64,000 nt of DNA from Eledone cirrhosa (lineage: Eukaryota), in NCBI GenBank assembly GCA_964016885.1, contig OZ024741.1:286502001-286566000 (forward strand), in the 5' to 3' direction. This document shows positions 15,600 through 64,000 of this stretch, piece by piece. Position numbers and translations under genes: made by a program. How positions within the stretch are numbered: the stretch's first letter is position 1; each line of letters opens with the position of its first letter. Below the pieces are notes generated by a model. The model did no database searches. It saw only the letters and a list, made by a program, of their open reading frames with translations, and was not told the origin of the DNA.

Positions 15600-15756
15600 T
15601 TAATAAATGGAAAATATCTTTAGAAAACTAGATTTATTTTATTATACATATTTCAAGGGTACCAGTATTTTGGTACGCTATCGTCAGATTAAATACAATA
15701 TTTGGTTTGCAGATAATGACATATCGACATATGAACTTAATGTTATGAGTTCAATG

Positions 15757-15757
<1 letters not shown>
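15600..15757 (-). mobile_element. HHR-bearing family E fragment
   Basis: Minus strand CTGACGA-tagcgtacca..tggtaccctt-GAAA-tatgta; homologous to 44325-44753. Confidence 0.6.
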
Positions 15758-15798
<41 letters not shown>

Positions 15799-17156
15799 CA
15801 TACCAGTGGAGGATCAGTAACATCGTCCCAGTGCCAAAGAAGGGAGATCTCTCTAACACCAACAACTACAGGGGGATCTCACTGACGTCACTTATGACAA
15901 AGACCCTCAACAGGATGATTCTTAACAGGATCCAGCCTGAGATGGAGAAGAAGCTCAGGGACAACCAGAACGGCTTCAGAGAGGGTAGATCAACCACCAG
16001 TCACATCCTGATGCTGAGGAGGATATTAGAGGGAACTAGCGCAAAGTGCCTTCCTGCGGTCATGGTTTTCATTGACTTTAGGAAGGCCTTTGATTCTGTG
16101 GACCGTCACTGCCTGATGAAGATCTTACAGGCTTATGGAATCCCCAAGAAGATAGTGGACCTGATATCACTGCTCTACACCAACACCAAAGCCCAAGTCA
16201 TTACACCTGATGGGATGACAGAGTTCTTTGAGATACTGGCTGGAGTGCTCCAGGGAGATACATTGATTCCCTACCTTTTTATCATCGTAGTGGACTATTG
16301 TATGCGCCTTGCACTGGAGAAACACCAGGACTCTGGCTTTACTGTAGCACCGGCTCAGAGCAGGAGAGTTAAGGCGAAAAAGATATCGGATGCTGAATTT
16401 ACCGACGACATAGTTTTGGTGACAAATACAGTGAAGGAGGCAGAGGATTTGATGCAGGAGCTGGAGACTGTGTCGATGAGTGTGGGGCTGAGAATGATTG
16501 AGACTAAAACAAAATATCGGGTAGAGAATATTGAGAAGCCAGAGATGATTACTAATGTAGGCGGGAAGCCTCTAGAATTGGTTGAGGACTTCCTGTATTT
16601 GGGAGCAAAGATTGGGAATACGGAAGATGATGTGGTTGAGAGGAAGAGCAAGGCCTGGGCGGCGTGTCACAGCTTGAGATCGGTGTGGAGGTCGGACCTT
16701 CGTAAAGACCTGAAAATCCGCCTCTTCATTGATGTGGTGGAGTCTGTGCTGCTGTACGGGTCTGAGACTTGGACCCTGACCAAGAAACTCACTCAGATGG
16801 TGGATGGGTGCTACACGAGAATGCTGAGGATGGCTCTGAACATTAATCAGTATACACTGAGGATGAAAAAACTCAGAGCTGTACGGGAGCCTCCCAAAAG
16901 TCAGCTCAAAAGTGATACAGAGGAGACTGAGGTTAACTGGACATGCTCACCGACATCCAGAGATGACATTGCACTCAGTGCTCCTGTGGGAGCCCCTACA
17001 TGGACACACTGGAAGAGGAAGACCAAGGTTAACGTATGTTGATGCCCTAAGGACAGACACTGGGCTGTTGGAGACGCAGGACATGGCAGCGATAATGAGG
17101 GACAGAGACCGCTGGAGAGAACACGTCCATGGATCTCGGGAATTTTACCCGCCCTA

Positions 17157-18784: not shown

Positions 18785-19272
18785 TAAGATGTATGGTAGG
18801 TCGTATGTGAATCGCGATGATCACGTCTGACTTACCAAATATGTGACGGTAGCTAGTTAAGCTCTATGCGTATACGCAGAGCAGAAATATTAGTGAAAAA
18901 GAACAAAGGAACTATTATGACATTATAACAAGTTTATTGCCGACAGCCGTTTCGTCCGATCCCATGGTGGGACTTATCAGGGCATATAACATGTGATTGC
19001 AAGATCTAATTTTTAAACTTCAATCCCTGACCCCGACAACTATTATAAAAGAGCCCCCTTAGAATATAGACCCCAACTACACAAGCGGAGTTGCTGATGT
19101 ATACCACAATTTCAAACTGCTAGCCTTGAGTGATACGTTGATGTAAACAATGATCTTGCAATCACATGTTATATGCCTTGATAAGTCCCACCATGGGGTC
19201 GGACGAAACGGCTGTCGGCAATAAACTTGTTATAATGTCATAATAGTTCCTTTGTTCTTTTTCACTAATATA
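18783..19272 (-). mobile_element. HHR-bearing fold-back family G
   Basis: ~120-bp arms 18887-19006/19152-19271; tail 18783-18886; (TA)n flanks. Confidence 0.85.
19174..19220 (+). ncRNA. Type I hammerhead motif, U3-A8 core variant
   Basis: tgcc-TTGATAA-gtcc..ggac-GAAA-cggctg-TC-ggca; the mirror arm reads CTGATAA. Confidence 0.7.
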
Positions 19273-19773
19273 TTTATATATATATATATATATATATGTA
19301 AGTATGCATGTATACGTACATACATATATGTATACAGACGTACAGTAGCATGCACATATATATATATATATACATATATACATACATATGCATACAGGTA
19401 CACATACATATATGCACGTATCAGTTTAGCGGCGCTAACGTCGCTTTGTTCGTTTGTAAACAAACTGATACGTGCATATATGTATGTGTACCTGTATGCA
19501 TATGTATGTATATATGTATATATATATATATATGTGCATGCTACTGTACGTCTGTATACATATATGTATGTACGTATACATGCATACTTACATTTAAGTA
19601 AGTGCCATACTAAGAGTGAGAAATGAAATTTCGTTTTCATTTTGTTTCAATTTATCGTTTTCGGTATGCCTGACCGATTTAACTCACTCAATATGCAAAT
19701 TAGGCTGCTCAGCCGTTAATTTTCATAAGGAAAGTATATACTTTCGAACGTTCAACTATCTGGCAGATGGGTA

Positions 19774-19818
19774 AACGGTGCTGATGATAGCTAACAAGCT
19801 TGAAACTAGTACATCGTT
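19774..19818 (+). ncRNA. Minimal type I hammerhead ribozyme, unit 1
   Basis: aacggtg-CTGATGA-t agct aaca agct t-GAAA-ctag-TA-catcgtt; predicted cleavage after 19811. Confidence 0.85.
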
Positions 19819-20239
19819 CCTGTGTCAGTGTTGAACAAAAAGGTGACGTGGTTGCCTTAACACCGTATGGCATAAATTCAGGCTGTTCAGTTTGTTTACA
19901 AACGAACAAAGCGACGTTAGCGCCGCTAAACTGATACGTGCATATATGTATGTGTACCTGTATGCATATGTATGTATATATGTATATATATATATATATG
20001 TGCATGCTACTGTACGTCTGTATACATATATGTATGTACGTATACATGCATACTTACATTTAAGTAAGTGCCATACTAAGAGTGAGAAATGAAATTTCGT
20101 TTTCATTTTGTTTCAATTTATCGTTTTCGGTATGCCTGACCGATTTAACTCACTCAATATGCAAATTAGGCTGCTCAGCCGTTAATTTTCATAAGGAAAG
20201 TATATACTTTCGAACGTTCAACTATCTGGCAGATGGGTA

Positions 20240-20284
20240 AACGGTGCTGATGATAGCTAACAAGCTTGAAACTAGTACATCGTT
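20240..20284 (+). ncRNA. Minimal type I hammerhead ribozyme, unit 2
   Basis: Identical to unit 1, shifted by 466; predicted cleavage after 20277. Confidence 0.85.
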
Positions 20285-20584
20285 CCTGTGTCAGTGTTGA
20301 ACAAAAAGGTGACGTGGTTGCCTTAACACCGTATGGCATAAATTCAGGCTGTTCAGTTTGTTTACAAACGAACAAAGCGACGTTAGCGCCGCTAAACTGA
20401 TACGTGCATATATGTATGTGTACCTGTATGCATATGTATGTATATATGTATATATATATATATATGTGCATGCTACTGTACGTCTGTATACATATATGTA
20501 TGTACGTATACATGCATACTTACATTTAAGTAAGTGCCATACTAAGAGTGAGAAATGAAATTTCGTTTTCATTTTGTTTCAATT

Positions 20585-20619
<35 letters not shown>

Positions 20620-20630
20620 TTATATATATA

Positions 20631-20682
<52 letters not shown>

Positions 20683-20689
<7 letters not shown>

Positions 20690-21035
20690 GTGAGGTTTTT
20701 TTTACAAAATGAAAAATAACCGAGGTGTCCTACACGAGTGGAAGTATAAAGAAAAAGGGATGAAATCGAAAATGCAACTGAAGTCTTATTTTTTTTAAAA
20801 ATATATATATTTATTTGGTTCCTTTACCGGTTTCGCAGTTCTTCTGCTTTTCAAAAGGTGAGTTGAGATGGAGGGTCTGTGGTTTTTCTCAGTGAGAAAA
20901 ACCACAGACCCTCCATCTCAACTCACCTTTTGAAAAGCAGAAGAACTGCGAAACCGGTAAAGGAACCAAATAAATATATATATTTTTAAAAAAAATAAGA
21001 CTTCAGTTGCATTTTCGATTTCATCCCTTTTTCTT

Positions 21036-21040
<5 letters not shown>
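20683..21040 (-). mobile_element. HHR-bearing fold-back family I (apparently perfect ~295-bp palindrome plus tail)
   Basis: Arms 20744-20891/20893-21040 with essentially no spacer; tail 20683-20743. Confidence 0.88.
20926..20963 (+). ncRNA. Minimal type I hammerhead motif, U3-A8 variant (mirror copy on the minus strand at about 20821-20858)
   Basis: cctt-TTGAAAA-gcag aagaa ctgc-GAAA-ccgg-TA-aagg. Confidence 0.8.
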
Positions 21041-31406: not shown

Positions 31407-31622
31407 TAGAAGTGGTTAAACAACAGTTAGTTCACCATACCGAGGACAATTGTTTCACCTTAGCGGATCCTCAGCTCGTCCATTACGAGCTGAGGATCCG
31501 CTAAGGTGAAACAATTGTTCTCGGTATGGTGAACTAACTGTTGTGTAACCACTTCTACCTAACTCGTCCCATGGACTGAGTGCTCTACCACTACGGATAT
31601 TACCTTCCAGTGTTCTACCACT
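31407..31622 (+). mobile_element. HHR-bearing fold-back family L
   Basis: Arms 31407-31479/31485-31557, tail to 31622; cgag-CTGAGGA(31490)-tcc gctaa ggt-GAAA-caattg-TT-ctcg, and -TC-ctcg on the mirror arm. Confidence 0.88.
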
Positions 31623-48344: not shown

Positions 48345-49264
48345 CTAGCAGAGGTACCCGGCGTTTCTCGGTATAACTCTCAATGGAGTAGTCGTTCAAA
48401 TAAACCGAAAGACTTCCGTTAAACACGACTATAGAAGTAACAATTTATAGGTGTTGGTCCTAAAGATGGCCTTTGAACGTTCAATTTGAAATATCTCTGC
48501 GGCGTGCTGCCAGCAAAGACGAATCCGATGGTAACAATTTAAAGTTGGTGGCTCTAAAGAGAGCCTTGGATCGTTCACTCTTAAAAGTCTCAGCGGTGGT
48601 GCTGCCAGCAAAGACGAATCCAGCGATAACAATTTATAGTTGGTGGCCCTGAAGAGGACCTTTTAACGTTCACTTTGAAATATCTCAGCGGCGGTGCTGC
48701 CAGCAAAGATGGATCCGATGGTAACAATTTAAACTTGTTGGCCCTGAAAAGGGGCTTGGATCGTTCACACTTAAACGTCCCAGCGGCAGAGCTGTCATCA
48801 AAGACGACTCCTATTAGAGGTGGTGGCCCTTAAGAAGTCCTTCACACCACTTTGGTGTGTCGTATTTGCTTTACTTGTTATTTGAGATTGTAACCTAGAA
48901 AAGAATGTAACAGTCGGTGGCCACAAAAACGGCCTTGGCAAGATCCCGCTGGAATGTCAAAAAATGTGTAAATAAGATGTAGGGAAAAGTAGATTAATTA
49001 GGTTAAAACTACGGAACATCGATAGCAAAGCGTAATAGCAACATATAAATGCGGAAAACGGAAACATTGAACATTTATAATGTATAGCAAAAGCAACCTC
49101 AGAGGCGTACGTGGTATTGTCAAAGGGACAAAAATAGTACATGGATACAGCAAATGTAAGCACTTATACAAAAAAAAAAGCAGCGATTACTTGTTGGCGG
49201 TTGGGGTACCTACAAAAATTCCTTATAGACTATATTTTGGGTTTTCTCGCGAGTTGCAAAAGCA

Positions 49265-49643
49265 AATAGGTTATGTCGGCTCCCCACTCGAGAGCAGCCA
49301 ACATATAGTTGACCATGGGAGAAGCACGGTTCTTCTAAATTAAGCCCTACGACCGTCAGCGTCTGACCCTGAATCGACATGGCTAAACTGAGCCGGAGAG
49401 GGAATTGCAGCCTTCTGAATGTGAAGGGAATGTCTTTACCGGATGGAATCGCGTGCCGTTGGAAAGCCTTCGGGGTTCCAAATTCCTGAGGAGCATGACA
49501 GAGGCACCTTTCTTAAGTCGCAGTAAGTGTGGTGGCAATCCGGGAGGGTCTAGGGTGTTAAGAAATTCTGTGGGGTAATTATCAACTTCGTCCGGATCAG
49601 CCATAGAGTCAAGGGACTTGTAGACGTGCAGGTTTCCAAGCAA
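49265..49643 (-). pseudogene. Helitron PIF1-family helicase remnant
   Basis: YPTEFLNTLDPPGLPPHLLRLKKGASVMLLRNL..LSNGTR, then QGQTLTVVGLNLEEPCFSHGQLYVGCSRV (motifs V-VI). Confidence 0.92.
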
Positions 49644-53397: not shown

Positions 53398-53775
<378 letters not shown>

Positions 53776-57159: not shown

Positions 57160-60100
57160 GGCTTTCCAACCACAATGTCCCAGGTTCTAACCCTACATTT
57201 GTTCTTTCCAACCACAATGTCCCAGGTTCTAACCCTACATTTGTTCTTTCCAACCACAATGTCCCAGGTTCTAACCCTACATTTGTTCTTTCCAACCACA
57301 ATGTCCCAGGTTCTAACCCTACATTTGTTCTTTCCAACCACAATGTCCCAGGTTCTAACCCTACATTTGTTCTTTCCAACCACAATGTCCCAGGTTCTAA
57401 CCCTACATTTGTTCTTTCCAACCACAATGTCCCAGGTTCTAACCCTATATTTCTTCTTTCCAACCACAATGTCCCAGGTTCTAACCCTACATTTGTGCTT
57501 TCCAACCACAATGTCCCAGGTTCTAACCCTACATTTGTTCTTTCCAACCACAATGTCCCAGGTTCTAACCCTACATTTGTTCTTTCCAACCACAATGTCC
57601 CAGGTTCTAACCCTACATTTGTTCTTTCCAACCACAATGTCCCAGGTTCTAACCCTATATTTCTTCTTTCCAACCACAATGTCCCAGGTTCTAACCCTAC
57701 ATTTGTTCTTTCCAACCACAATGTCCCAGGTTCTAACCCTACATTTGTTCTTTCCAACCACAATGTCCCAGGTTCTAACCCTACATTTGTGCTTTCCAAC
57801 CACAATGTCCCAGGTTCTAACCCTACATTTGTGCTTTCCAACCACAATGTCCCAGGTTCTAACCCTACATTTGTTCTTTCCAACCACAATGTCCCAGTTT
57901 CTAACCCTACATTTATTCTTTCCAACCACAATGTCCTGGGTTCTAACCCTACATTTGTTCTTTGCCAACCACAATGTCCTGGGTTCTAACCCTACATTTG
58001 TTCTTTGCCAACCACGATGTCCCAGGTTCTAACCCTACATTTCTTCTTTCCAACTACAATGTCCCAGGTTCTAACCCTACATTTGTTCTTTCCAACCACA
58101 ATGTCCTGGGTTCTAACCCTACATTTGTTCTTTCCAACCACAATGTCCCAGGTTCTAACCCTACATTTGTTCTTTCCAACCACAATGTCCCAGGTTCTAA
58201 CCCTACATTTGTTCTTTCCAACCACAATGTCCCAGGTTCTAACCCTACATTTGTGCTTTCCAACCACAATGTCCCAGGTTCTAACCCTACATTTGTTCTT
58301 TCCAACCACAATGTCCTGGGTTCTAACCCTACATTTGTTCTTTCCAACCACAATGTCCTGGGTTCTAACCCTACATTTGTTCTTTCCAACCACAATGTCC
58401 CAGGTTCTAACCCTACATTTGTTCTTTCCAACCACAATGTCCCAGGTTCTAACCCTACATTTGTTCTTTCCAACCACAATGTCCCAGGTTCTAACCCTAC
58501 ATTTGTGCTTTCCAACCACAATGTCCCAGGTTCTAACCCTACATTTGTTCTTTCCAACCACAATATCCTAGCTTCTAACCCTACATTTGTTCTTTCCAAC
58601 CACAATGTCCTTGGTTCTAACCCTACATTTGTTCTTTCCAACCACAATGTCCTGGGTTCTAACCCTACATTTGTGCTTTCCAACCACAATGTCCCAGGTT
58701 CTAACCCTACATTTGTTCTTTCCAACCACAATGTCCCAGGTTCTAACCCTACATTTGTTCTTTCCAACCACAATGTCCCAGGTTCTAACCCTACATTTGT
58801 TCTTTCCAACCACAATGTCCCAGGTTCTAACCCTACATTTGTGCTTTCCAACCACAATGTCCCAGGTTCTAACCCTACATTTGTTCTTTCCAACCACAAT
58901 GTCCCAGGTTCTAACCCTACATTTGTTCTTTCCAACTACAATGTCCCAGGTTCTAACCCTACATTTGTGCTTTCCAACCACAATGTCCCAGGTTCTAACC
59001 CTACATTTGTTCTTTCCAACTACAATGTCCCAGGTTCTAACCCTACATTTGTTCTTTCCAACCACAATGTCCTGGGTTCTAACCCTACATTTGTTCTTTC
59101 CAACCACAATGTCCCAGGTTCTAACCCTACATTTCTTCTTTCCAACTACGATGTCCCAGGTTCTAACCCTACATTTGTTCTTTCCAACCACAATGTCCTG
59201 GGTTCTAACCCTACATTTGTTCTTTCCAACCACAATGTCCCAGGTTCTAACCCTACATTTGTTCTTTCCAACCACAATGTCCCAGGTTCTAACCCTACAT
59301 TTGTTCTTTCCAACCACAATGTCCCAGGTTCTAACCCTACATTTGTGCTTTCCAACCACAATGTCCCAGGTTCTAACCCTACATTTGTTCTTTCCAACCA
59401 CAATGTCCCAGGTTCTAACCCTACATTTGTTCTTTGCCAACCACAATGTCCCAGGTTCTAACCCTACATTTGTTCTTTCCAACTACAATGTCCTGGGTTC
59501 TAACCCTACATTTGTTCTTTCCAACCACAATGACCCAGGTTCTAACCCTACATTTGTGCTTTCCAACCACAATGTCCCAGGTTCTAATCCTACATTTGTT
59601 CTTTCCAACCACAATGTCCCAGGTTCTAACCCTACATTTGTGCTTTCCAACCACAATGTCCCAGGTTCTAACCCTACATTTGTTCTTTCCAACCACAATG
59701 TCCCAGGTTCTAACCCTACATTTGTTCTTTCCAACCACAATGTCCCAGGTTCTAACCCTACATTTGTTCTTTCCAACCACAATGTCCCAGGTTCTAACCC
59801 TATATTTCTTCTTTCCAACCACAATGTCCCAGGTTCTAACCCTACATTTCTTCTTTCCAACCACAATGTCCCAGGTTCTAACCCTACATTTGTTCTTTCC
59901 AACCACAATGTCCCAGGTTCTAACCCTACATTTGTGCTTTCCAACCACAATGTCCCAGGTTCTAACCCTACATTTGTGCTTTCCAACCACAATGTCCCAG
60001 GTTCTAACCCTACATTTGTTCTTTCCAACCACAATGTCCCAGTTTCTAACCCTACATTTATTCTTTCCAACCACAATGTCCTGGGTTCTAACCCTACATT

Positions 60101-63100
60101 TGTTCTTTGCCAACCACAATGTCCTGGGTTCTAACCCTACATTTGTTCTTTGCCAACCACGATGTCCCAGGTTCTAACCCTACATTTCTTCTTTCCAACT
60201 ACAATGTCCCAGGTTCTAACCCTACATTTGTTCTTTCCAACCACAATGTCCTGGGTTCTAACCCTACATTTGTTCTTTCCAACCACAATGTCCCAGGTTC
60301 TAACCCTACATTTGTTCTTTCCAACCACAATGTCCCAGGTTCTAACCCTACATTTGTTCTTTCCAACCACAATGTCCCAGGTTCTAACCCTACATTTGTG
60401 CTTTCCAACCACAATGTCCCAGGTTCTAACCCTACATTTGTTCTTTCCAACCACAATGTCCTGGGTTCTAACCCTACATTTGTTCTTTCCAACCACAATG
60501 TCCTGGGTTCTAACCCTACATTTGTTCTTTCCAACCACAATGTCCCAGGTTCTAACCCTACATTTGTTCTTTCCAACCACAATGTCCCAGGTTCTAACCC
60601 TACATTTGTTCTTTCCAACCACAATGTCCCAGGTTCTAACCCTACATTTGTGCTTTCCAACCACAATGTCCCAGGTTCTAACCCTACATTTGTTCTTTCC
60701 AACCACAATATCCTAGGTTCTAACCCTACATTTGTTCTTTCCAACCACAATGTCCTTGGTTCTAACCCTACATTTGTTCTTTCCAACCACAATGTCCTGG
60801 GTTCTAACCCTACATTTGTGCTTTCCAACCACAATGTCCCAGGTTCTAACCCTACATTTGTTCTTTCCAACCACAATGTCCCAGGTTCTAACCCTACATT
60901 TGTTCTTTCCAACCACAATGTCCCAGGTTCTAACCCTACATTTGTTCTTTCCAACCACAATGTCCCAGGTTCTAACCCTACATTTGTGCTTTCCAACCAC
61001 AATGTCCCAGGTTCTAACCCTACATTTGTTCTTTCCAACCACAATGTCCCAGGTTCTAACCCTACATTTGTTCTTTCCAACTACAATGTCCCAGGTTCTA
61101 ACCCTACATTTGTGCTTTCCAACCACAATGTCCCAGGTTCTAACCCTACATTTGTTCTTTCCAACTACAATGTCCCAGGTTCTAACCCTACATTTGTTCT
61201 TTCCAACCACAATGTCCTGGGTTCTAACCCTACATTTGTTCTTTCCAACCACAATGTCCCAGGTTCTAACCCTACATTTCTTCTTTCCAACTACGATGTC
61301 CCAGGTTCTAACCCTACATTTGTTCTTTCCAACCACAATGTCCTGGGTTCTAACCCTACATTTGTTCTTTCCAACCACAATGTCCCAGGTTCTAACCCTA
61401 CATTTGTTCTTTCCAACCACAATGTCCCAGGTTCTAACCCTACATTTGTTCTTTCCAACCACAATGTCCCAGGTTCTAACCCTACATTTGTGCTTTCCAA
61501 CCACAATGTCCCAGGTTCTAACCCTACATTTGTTCTTTCCAACCACAATGTCCCAGGTTCTAACCCTACATTTGTTCTTTGCCAACCACAATGTCCCAGG
61601 TTCTAACCCTACATTTGTTCTTTCCAACTACAATGTCCTGGGTTCTAACCCTACATTTGTTCTTTCCAACCACAATGACCCAGGTTCTAACCCTACATTT
61701 GTGCTTTCCAACCACAATGTCCCAGGTTCTAACCCTACATTTGTTCTTTCCAACCACAATGTCCCAGGTTCTAACCCTACATTTATTCTTTCCAACCACA
61801 ATGTCCCAGGTTCTAACCCTACATTTGTTCTTTCCAACCACAATGTCCCAGGTTCTAACCCTACATTTGTTCTTTCCAACTACAATGTCCCAGGTTCTAA
61901 CCCTACATTTGTTCTTTGCCAACCACAATGTCCTGTGTTCTAACCCTACATTTGTTCTTTGCCAACCACAATGTCCCAGGTTCTAACCCTACATTTCTTC
62001 TTTCCAACCACAATGTCCCAGGTTCTAACCCTACATTTATTCTTTCCAACCACAATGTCCCAGGTTCTAACCCTACATTTGTTCTTTCCAACCACAATGT
62101 CCTGGGTTCTAACCCTACATTTGTTCTTTCCAACCACAATGTCCCAGGTTCTAACCCTACATTTGTTCTTTCCAACCACAATGTCCCAGGTTCTAACCCT
62201 ACATTTGTTCTTTCCAACCACAATGTCCCAGGTTCTAACCCTACATTTGTGCTTTCCAACCACAATGTCCCAGGTTCTAACCCTACATTTGTTCTTTCCA
62301 ACCACAATGTCCCAGGTTCTAACCCTACATTTGTTCTTTGCCAACCACAATGTCCCAGGTTCTAACCCTACATTTCTTCTTTCCAACTACAATGTCCCAG
62401 GTTCTAACCCTACATATGTTCTTTCCAACCACAATGTCCTGGGTTCTAACCCTACATTTGTTCTTTCCAACCACAATGTCCCAGGTTCTAACCCTACATT
62501 TGTTCTTTCCAACCACAATGTCCCAGGTTCTAACCCTACATTTCTTCTTTCCAACCACAATGTCCCAGGTTATAACCCTACATTTGTTCTTTGCCAACCA
62601 CAATGTCCCAGGTTCTAACCCTACATTTGTTCTTTCCAACTACAATGTCCTGGGTTCTAACCCTACATTTATTCTTTCCAACCACAATGTCCTGGGTTCT
62701 AACCCTACATTTGTTCTTTCCAACCACAATGTCCCAGGTTCTAACCCTACATTTGTGCTTTCCAACCACAATGTCCCAGGTTCTAACCCTACATTTGTTC
62801 TTTCCAACCACAATGTCCCAGGTTCTAACCCTACATTTGTTCTTTGCCAACCACAATGTCCCAGGTTCTAACCCTACATTTGTTCTTTCCAACTACAATG
62901 TCCTGGGTTCTAACCCTACATTTATTCTTTCCAACCACAATGTCCTGGGTTCTAACCCTATATTTGTTCTTTGCCAACCACAATGTCCCAGGTTCTAACC
63001 CTACATTTCTTCTTATCAACTACAATGTCCCAGGTTCTAACCCTACATTTGTTCTTTCCAACCACAATGTCCCAGGTTCTAACCCTACATTTGTTCTTTC

Positions 63101-64000
63101 CAACCACAATGTCCCAGGTTCTAACCCTACATTTGTTCTTTCCAACCACAATGTCCTGGGTTATAACCCTACATTTGTTCTTTGCCAACCACAATGTCCC
63201 AGGTTCTAACCCTACATTTGTTCTTTCCAACCACAATGTCCCAGGTTCTAACCCTACATTTCTTCTTTCCAACCACAATGTCCCAGGTTCTAACCCTACA
63301 TTTGTTCTTTCCAACCACAATGTCCCAGGTTCTAACCCTACATTTGTGCTTTCCAACCACAATGTCCCAGGTTCTAACCCTACATTTATTCTTTCCAACC
63401 ACAATGTCCTGGGTTCTAACCCTACATTTGTTCTTTGCCAACCACAATATCCTGGGTTCTAACCCTACATTTGTTCTTTCCAACCACAATGTCCCAGGTT
63501 CTAACCCTACATTTGTTCTTTCCAACCACAATGTCCCAGGTTCTAACCCTACATTTCTTCTTTCCAACCACAATGTCCCAGGTTATAACCATACATTTGT
63601 TCTTTGCCAACCACAATGTCCCAGGTTCTAACCCTACATTTGTTCTTTCCAACTACAATGTCCTGGGTTCTAACCCTACATTTGTTCTTTCCAACCACAA
63701 TGTCCCAGGTTCTAACCCTACATTTGTGCTTTCCAACCACAATGTCCCAGGTTCTAACCCTACATTTGTTCTTTCCAACCACAATGTCCCAGGTTCTAAC
63801 CCTACATTTGTTCTTTGCCAACCACAATGTCCCAGGTTCTAACCCTACATTTGTTCTTTCCAACTACAATGTCCTGGGTTCTAACCCTACATTTATTCTT
63901 TCCAACCACAATGTCCTGGGTTCTAACCCTACATTTGTTCTTTGCCAACCACAATGTCCCAGGTTCTAACCCTACATTTCTTCTTATCAACTACAATGTC
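57160..64000. repeat. 42-bp satellite array (>160 monomers, runs off the window) with higher-order structure
   Basis: Monomer ccaaccacaatgtcccaggttctaaccctacatttgttcttt; 43-bp variants (tttgccaacc) recur at a 2145-bp period. Confidence 0.97.

What the first reader, a model, noticed from the sequence alone, without database searches (positions are those of the whole stretch)
19296..20585. Retrozyme-like 466-nt hammerhead monomer integrated as a 2.4x head-to-tail concatemer: footprint of a reverse-transcribed circular RNA
Seen: a non-coding 466-bp unit repeated 2.4 times (19462-20585), apparently without differences. Each full unit has a minimal type I hammerhead (7-bp stem I aacggtg/catcgtt, CUGAUGA, GAAA, palindromic ctag stem III, GUA site; cleavage predicted after 19811 and 20277). 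The insert starts ~350 nt before the first site and ends ~310 nt after the second, so neither end is at a cleavage site. Its 3' end joins (TA)n through 'ttta'. Its 5' end is an inverted copy joined by a 7-nt microhomology (aaactga). Known: minimal HHRs with palindromic loop III occur in Penelope-like pseudo-LTRs and in metazoan non-LTR retrozymes, which yield circular RNAs and can cleave as dimers. Inference: a young, ORF-less circular RNA copied by rolling-circle reverse transcription using a PLE enzyme in trans. I do not know of this family being described in cephalopods.
Basis: partly seen in the sequence, partly recalled or inferred. Interest (0 to 1): 0.9.

Follow-up and report, generated by a model that had tools for sequence, protein, structure and literature searches.

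The report
Penelope-pasted hammerhead retrozyme, two arms
This is one copy of a very abundant 466-base non-coding repeat with a hammerhead (self-cutting RNA) motif whose copies sit in TA repeats as back-to-back arms ending at two fixed points; it is likely a retrozyme, a known kind of parasite, likely pasted in by Penelope-type transposon enzymes from a possibly circular RNA, and cutting and circles are untested.

Summary
In detail: 466-bp unit, 2.42 identical copies, hammerhead motif, inverted 5' arm, TA flanks. The family has over 15,000 units in this genome. In 113 loci, 167 of 197 arms end at one of two sites, about 247 or 309 nt after the predicted cut. Of 66 back-to-back pairs, 47 join one of each and none joins like ends. 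That is the Penelope 'tail' from two internal priming sites (PMC11167929). Two active autonomous Penelope-like families here insert the same way. Copies read straight through the cut site, so cleaved linear monomers are not the template. Many arrays share one private haplotype, which fits rolling-circle copying. Others alternate or are mosaic, which fits multimeric templates. No parent open reading frame or specific helper was found, and cleavage and circles are untested. Verdict: new member of the known animal non-LTR retrozymes; Penelope mobilisation about 0.9, circular template about 0.55. The scan noted such elements before on other DNA of this genome and others.

The parts
19462..20586 (+). 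Main arm: unit positions 117-466, 1-466, 1-309 (position 1 = first base after the predicted cut); ends at the family's 'long' site
19297..19468 (-). Inverted arm: unit positions 76-247; ends at the family's 'short' site
19462..19468 (.). 7-nt overlap joining the 5' ends of the two arms (internal inverted repeat of the unit)
   Evidence: 21 of 38 fully mappable junctions in the family overlap by 1-37 nt
19774..19818 (+). Type I hammerhead motif 1; predicted cut after 19811; palindromic ACUAGU helix III predicted to need a partner hammerhead
20240..20284 (+). Type I hammerhead motif 2; predicted cut after 20277
19812..20277 (+). Predicted 466-nt self-excised monomer (untested)
19750..19836 (+). 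Extended helix I (22 pairs in helices 8-11), nearly invariant in 22 family members; would hold the monomer's two ends together
19940..20058 (+). Internal TA-rich hairpin of variable length; the main source of unit-length differences between arrays
20525..20586 (+). Tail of about 62 nt (unit positions 248-309), present at the end of one arm only
19274..19296 (.). Left (TA)n target
20587..20683 (.). Right (TA)n target

Best explanation
A non-coding 466-nt hammerhead repeat, present in over 15,000 units, inserts into (TA)n as two back-to-back arms that end at two fixed sites about 60 nt apart, and it is likely a non-LTR retrozyme copied by a borrowed Penelope-type reverse transcriptase-endonuclease, probably running round a ligated RNA circle. 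Steps. (1) Inferred: arrays are transcribed; adjacent hammerheads pair through the palindrome ACUAGU and cut partially; host ligase closes monomers and some multimers. (2) Inferred from PMC11167929: the enzyme nicks both strands of a TA repeat and primes inside the RNA, at position about 309 for one strand and about 247 for the other. The footprint of this step is shown. (3) Shown: each cDNA runs backwards through the cut site with an exact junction and stops at a random point. (4) Shown: the two 5' ends are joined back to back, often by a short overlap. (5) Inferred: long arrays with one private haplotype come from several rounds on one molecule; alternating arrays come from multimeric templates.
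For: Two fixed ends: 97 arms end near 309 and 70 near 247, of 197 arms in 113 loci; 47 of 66 pairs are long+short, none long+long or short+short, 19 have an unassigned end (exact end sequences). The same pattern holds in two intact RT plus GIY-YIG families of this genome, with tails of 41 and 62-64 nt. Read-through: the 24-mer just after the cut occurs 15,372 times and the 24-mer spanning it 15,423 times; 3 of 136 mapped 5' ends lie within 5 nt of the cut. One template per array: 7 of 24 multi-unit arrays carry array-wide rare variants; 81% of unit-length variance lies between arrays (20 arrays, 87 periods); L120 has one private 476-nt haplotype in all 6 full monomers on both arms. The youngest loci hold more hammerheads (mean 5.0 in 18 loci) than older ones (1.8 in 95). 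RNA structure: fold z -7.8 for the monomer and -4.2 without the TA part; 10 of 92 pairs change on both sides, covariation score above all 500 shuffles. Related retrozymes make circles in mussel, coral and axolotl (PMC7229834).
Against: No RNA evidence of any kind was obtained. Some arrays are not uniform: L034 alternates A-B-A-B then B; L081 repeats a three-unit motif on both arms; L116 has a block of 5 full monomers of one haplotype then 3 others. These fit linear multimer transcripts as well as multimer circles. In vitro the anole Penelope enzyme used uncleaved RNA and did not need the hammerhead (PMC11167929), and 8 of 9 Xenopus retrozyme dimers did not cleave (10.64898/2026.07.22.740005). 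The lone hammerhead folds with its core mispaired. The hammerhead helices show no both-sided change (helices 8-12), and the covariation test does not correct for relatedness. Private variants show no A>G excess. No helper shares sequence with the unit. The length-versus-age comparison is biased by how loci were picked.
Confidence: 0.55

Rival explanations
1. Same Penelope machinery and same two priming sites, but the template is an uncleaved linear transcript of a parent array. The hammerhead is dispensable, and array uniformity is inherited from uniform parents.
For: The anole enzyme prefers unprocessed RNA (PMC11167929). Higher-order patterns shared by both arms of L081, with the arms offset by one unit, and the A-B-A-B pattern in L034. 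Read-through of the cut site is equally expected.
Against: Many different array-wide haplotypes each need a step from one monomer to many. Arms are 5'-truncated at random, so linear copying alone would shorten arrays each generation, yet young arrays reach 19 hammerheads. The hammerhead core and long helix I stay nearly invariant across subfamilies down to about 75% overall similarity.
Confidence: 0.3
2. Short Penelope-type insertions were lengthened afterwards by DNA slippage or unequal crossing-over.
For: This is the standard model of satellite growth (discussed in 10.64898/2026.07.22.740005). Block and alternating patterns (L116, L034) can arise this way.
Against: Both arms of one insertion are often multi-unit with the same haplotype and almost no divergence (L117, L120, L121). 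Older loci are shorter, not longer (sampling is biased).
Confidence: 0.07
3. The enzyme copies a cleaved linear monomer and jumps repeatedly from its 5' end to its 3' end, which helix I holds close.
For: Helix I joins the two ends in the predicted fold.
Against: The exact junction 24-mer is as common as the downstream one, and 5' ends do not pile up at the cut. From my own knowledge, template jumps usually leave added or lost bases.
Confidence: 0.04
4. The unit is only the pseudo-LTR of an autonomous Penelope element that has not been found, or this tandem is an assembly artefact.
For: Ends are fixed, as in a pseudo-LTR. Only 113 loci, nearly all from the first 100 Mb of one contig, were examined. 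No long read over this locus was seen.
Against: No unit runs into its own ORF in these loci, and older subfamilies keep the same closed unit. Thousands of arrays with their own haplotypes cannot be one artefact.
Confidence: 0.04

Closest known systems
Metazoan non-LTR retrozymes (Cervera and de la Pena 2020, PMC7229834; Li, Clavereau and Pollet 2026, 10.64898/2026.07.22.740005)
   Same: Non-coding tandem units, one type I hammerhead per unit, low GC, self-paired predicted fold, thousands of copies, autonomous Penelope-like elements in the same genome. The U-U pair at the base of helix II recalls axolotl HHR_Amex2.
   Different: The unit is 466 nt (170-400 nt in the 2020 paper; 51-972 in the 2026 preprint). 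Expression, cleavage and circles are untested here. In the parts I read, those papers propose Penelope mobilisation from co-occurrence and pseudo-LTR similarity and do not map copy ends. Here the ends carry the enzyme's footprint, but no pseudo-LTR relative was found.
EN+ Penelope-like element insertions (Craig et al. 2021, PMC8557442; Frangieh et al. 2024, PMC11167929)
   Same: Inverted 5'-truncated arm, head-to-tail tandems, tail on one end only, (TA)n targets, two priming sites downstream of a hammerhead.
   Different: No ORF. The tail is about 60 nt (30-40 in those papers). The priming sites are 247 and 309 nt after the cut. Arms hold up to 19 short units.
Non-autonomous Chlamys elements such as MRC1 (PMC8557442)
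   Same: Non-autonomous, Penelope-mobilised, often multicopy head-to-tail.
   Different: Those resemble their autonomous partner at the 3' end; no such partner was found here. That paper's abstract says the N-terminal-endonuclease clades lack canonical hammerheads.
Penelope pseudo-LTR hammerheads (Cervera and de la Pena 2014, PMC4209133)
   Same: Palindromic helix III predicted to work as a dimer. That paper already proposes circles as templates for more-than-unit reverse transcription.
   Different: This motif keeps a 1-bp helix III, a 4-bp helix II and a long helix I, and sits in an ORF-less unit.

Membership tests
Metazoan non-LTR retrozyme | [quoted passage not shown] | tested here: met
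Metazoan non-LTR retrozyme | Dispersed high-copy family, low GC, not attached to an ORF | tested here: met
   10,391 exact core 36-mers; no unit continuing into its own ORF in 113 loci; GC about 0.35 over 19001-20000
Metazoan non-LTR retrozyme | Highly self-paired monomer RNA | tested here: met
   predicted only: 67% paired as a circle, z -4.2 to -7.8; covariation
Metazoan non-LTR retrozyme | Self-cleavage of the transcript | not testable with these tools
   needs in vitro transcription; the palindrome duplex is predicted at -6.8 kcal/mol
Metazoan non-LTR retrozyme | Expression as linear and circular RNA | not testable with these tools
   no RNA holder was listed, which says nothing either way
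Penelope-mobilised non-autonomous element | Two fixed 3' ends (tail on one arm), inverted 5' arm, random 5' truncation, (TA)n target | tested here: met
   autonomous controls
Penelope-mobilised non-autonomous element | Terminal similarity to an identified autonomous partner | tested here: inconclusive
   none with the two Neptune-type families tested; other families not surveyed; mixed junctions ambiguous
Autonomous Penelope-like element | RT plus GIY-YIG open reading frame between the repeats | tested here: not met
Template made of cleaved linear monomers | Copy ends pile up at the cleavage site | tested here: not met

The most novel reading that the evidence does not exclude
These arrays are a direct genomic record of rolling-circle reverse transcription. 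A dimeric Penelope enzyme primes at two fixed internal sites of one hammerhead-made RNA circle (monomer or small multimer) from both strands of a TA nick and writes two opposed concatemers. This would supply the mechanism that the retrozyme papers read here propose but do not show, with a young family and active helper candidates to reconstitute it.
Probability: 0.5. Interest if true: 0.65.

Novelty: new member of a known kind. Interest (0 to 1): 0.45.

Why it matters
How animal retrozymes get written back into DNA is open: Penelope enzymes and circular templates are proposed, not shown, in the papers read. This family ties the insertions to the Penelope two-site priming footprint with counts, and excludes cleaved linear monomers as templates. 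It offers a young substrate (4,476 units with the youngest marker) and two active candidate helpers for a bench test. The element type itself is known, and the circle remains unproven.

Tried and rejected
DNA search of the own genome with the unit returned nothing, not even the window's copy; the tool skips very common words, so exact patterns were used instead. Sequencing runs: 6 holders, no RNA holder listed. Four of the 6 were laid on the locus; all were contigs with repeats skipped, so they gave nothing on expression or on this tandem. Circularly permuted ends: rejected. Helper by sequence: Neptune-type family A gave at best 15-nt matches at E about 5; family B gave a 12-nt match in the tail and microsatellite matches. 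Helper by chimera: L154/L224 joins family A to the unit, but both arms are short-ended; L039 and L256 join family B to the unit, both long-ended; L044, L047 and L167 join Hydra-type ORF pieces. These break the long+short rule or involve several families, and deletions between nested TA insertions explain them equally, so no helper is assigned. RNA-editing scars (lead from e1-8806368): private variants show A>G against T>C of 1:1 (array-wide), 7:7 and 8:7. Genome-wide, one 34-mer gains 49 matches over 9 A sites against 11 over 6 T sites, but units in one array are not independent (6 of the 49 are L116) and A94G also occurs in older copies; inconclusive. Rfam microRNA matches are hairpin artefacts below gathering score. 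A planned search with a Hydra-type protein was not completed, so Hydra termini were not surveyed genome-wide. The look-up of earlier findings by sequence found nothing.

Full report
Observation. The repeat is as described: period 466, 100% identical, 19462-20587, 2.416 units, with an inverted arm at 19293-19468 and (TA)n on both sides. Each full unit has a type I hammerhead motif with predicted cuts after 19811 and 20277. Below, position 1 is the first base after the cut. Helix III is one C-G pair round a 2-nt loop, so a lone motif is unlikely to fold; the predicted fold of the single motif mispairs the core. The palindrome ACUAGU can pair between two motifs (-6.8 kcal/mol), the dimer arrangement described in PMC4209133. 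Rfam gives only a weak hammerhead match.

Family. The exact 36-nt core occurs 10,391 times in the 3.0-Gb genome, with 0 for the reversed control. A conserved 24-mer occurs 15,372 times. The marker of the window's own, youngest subfamily occurs 4,476 times. I fetched the clusters listed first by these pattern searches, all on contig C1, and analysed 113 loci including the window. This sample favours younger, intact copies. Older subfamilies, down to about 75% similarity, keep the same closed unit and the same ends.

Ends. Of 197 arms, 97 end near position 309, 70 near 247, 23 inside the TA-rich part where I could not place them, and 7 elsewhere or at a locus edge. Of 66 back-to-back pairs, 47 have one long and one short end, none has two like ends, and 19 have an unassigned end. 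The short-end call used a motif search; exact end sequences are tallied. The window's insert follows the rule (247 and 309). The 136 mappable 5' ends are scattered over the unit, and 3 lie within 5 nt of the cut (about 4 expected if uniform, my arithmetic); 61 more fall in the TA-rich part and were not mapped. Genome-wide, the 24-mer spanning the cut (15,423) is as common as the one just after it (15,372). So the ends are not circularly permuted, and cDNAs cross the cut site cleanly.

What makes such ends. Frangieh et al. (PMC11167929; parts 1-2 of 4 read, the main text) show that an anole Penelope enzyme nicks both strands of AT-rich DNA and primes inside its RNA at two sites downstream of the hammerhead, which explains the genomic tail. 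They also show that cleavage was not needed in vitro. Craig et al. (PMC8557442; passages read) list the inverted 5' copy, partial tandems, tail and (TA)n bias as Penelope features. Two intact RT plus GIY-YIG families in this genome serve as controls. Family A (4,734-bp unit) ends at two sites 41 nt apart, one per arm. Family B (4,689-bp unit) ends at sites 62-64 nt apart. I call them Neptune-type from the CxxxxCxxC motif before the endonuclease that Craig et al. describe; no tree was built. 'Hydra-type' for other ORFs is a recalled label. Family B's tail length is closest to the unit's (about 58-62 nt), which is only a hint. Neither family shares sequence with the unit, and the mixed junctions found are ambiguous.

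Circle or chain. For one template per array: among 125 full units, substitutions average 0.9 within loci and 7.7 between; for 27 older units, 5.9 and 17.1, although the nearest unit at another locus is often as close as a neighbour. Of 24 multi-unit arrays, 7 carry array-wide rare variants and 2 show a mosaic signal; 81% of unit-length variance lies between arrays. L120, L117 and L035 each repeat one haplotype in every full monomer, on both arms in the first two. Young loci average 5.0 hammerheads, older loci 1.8 (biased sampling). Against a pure monomer circle: L034 runs A-B-A-B-B, L081 repeats a three-unit motif on both arms, and L116 is a block mosaic. These need multimeric templates, template switches or later DNA duplication. 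The editing-scar test was inconclusive. I put the circular template at about 0.55 and Penelope mobilisation at about 0.9.

RNA structure. The monomer folds far better than shuffles (z -7.8; -4.2 without the TA part). In 22 diverse copies, 97.1% of cells in 92 pairs are standard pairs, 10 pairs change on both sides, and the covariation score exceeds all 500 shuffles. The structure was derived from these same sequences and relatedness is not corrected. The both-sided changes lie outside the hammerhead, whose helices are invariant or change on one side. A 22-pair extended helix I would hold the ends of a cut monomer together.

Comparison with what is known. Cervera and de la Pena 2020 (PMC7229834; passages and section 14 read) define animal non-LTR retrozymes, show circles in coral, mussel and axolotl, and name Penelope elements as candidate helpers. 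Their 2014 paper (PMC4209133; parts 1-2 of 4 read) proposes circles as templates for tandem insertions. Li et al. 2026 (10.64898/2026.07.22.740005; parts 1-3 of 5 read) link retrozymes to pseudo-LTRs in vertebrates and sampled no mollusc. Searches for a cephalopod report and for retrozyme end mapping listed none by title or abstract start. An Octopus vulgaris repeat annotation (PMC13282606; passages) has no occurrence of 'ribozyme' or 'circular'. A Chlamydomonas genome preprint (10.1101/2022.06.16.496473; passages) confirms MRC1 as a non-autonomous Penelope-like element. I opened no supplements; those of PMC7229834 may list further molluscs. The host taxon was not tested here.

Verdict. A real, young, abundant retrozyme: a new member of a known kind. 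What this analysis adds is the counted Penelope footprint and the exclusion of cleaved linear templates. Earlier notes of the scan report two-armed hammerhead families, some probably this same family, elsewhere in this genome. I read them after the end mapping, and they are not independent support. Interest 0.45.

Noticed in passing
window 20684-21039: Back-to-back remnant, 99% identical to the end of the active Neptune-type family B, with one long and one short arm and a hammerhead-like core reading TTGAAAA (the U3-A8 variant of PMC4209133). It shares the TA repeat with the finding.
   Followed up: yes
window 18887-19271: Another inverted remnant with hammerhead motifs on both arms (weak Rfam Hammerhead_1, E 0.01 and 0.42) and a tail of about 100 nt; family not identified.
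   Followed up: partly
L183:173-4906 and L225:4200-8889: Both active Neptune-type families have two overlapping frames: 455 or 409 codons upstream with no Pfam match for the one tested, then the 784 or 775 codon RT-endonuclease frame. The overlap in family A holds TTTTTTAG, either a -1 frameshift site or a splice acceptor. The break is shared by many copies. Penelope elements are usually described with one ORF.
   Followed up: partly
window 8530, 15645, 18545, 27006, 31438-31526, 53498-53579: At least four other hammerhead families in this window alone; the fetched loci hold many more.
   Followed up: no
L034:6934-about 9100: A separate 310-bp hammerhead tandem with 8 motifs next to an array of this family.
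   Followed up: no
L224:2019-6105 (also L154): Chimera in which one arm is family A and the other runs from a family A piece straight into two units of the retrozyme; template switch or later deletion.
   Followed up: partly
window 57162-64000: 42-bp satellite, at least 162 copies, 95% matches, running off the window end.
   Followed up: no
window 15741-17042: 433-codon frame with a reverse transcriptase domain (RVT_1, E 1e-29), likely a LINE fragment.
   Followed up: partly
window 49213-49512 (-): 100-codon frame that looks like the end of a PIF1-type helicase of a Helitron (recalled motif).
   Followed up: no
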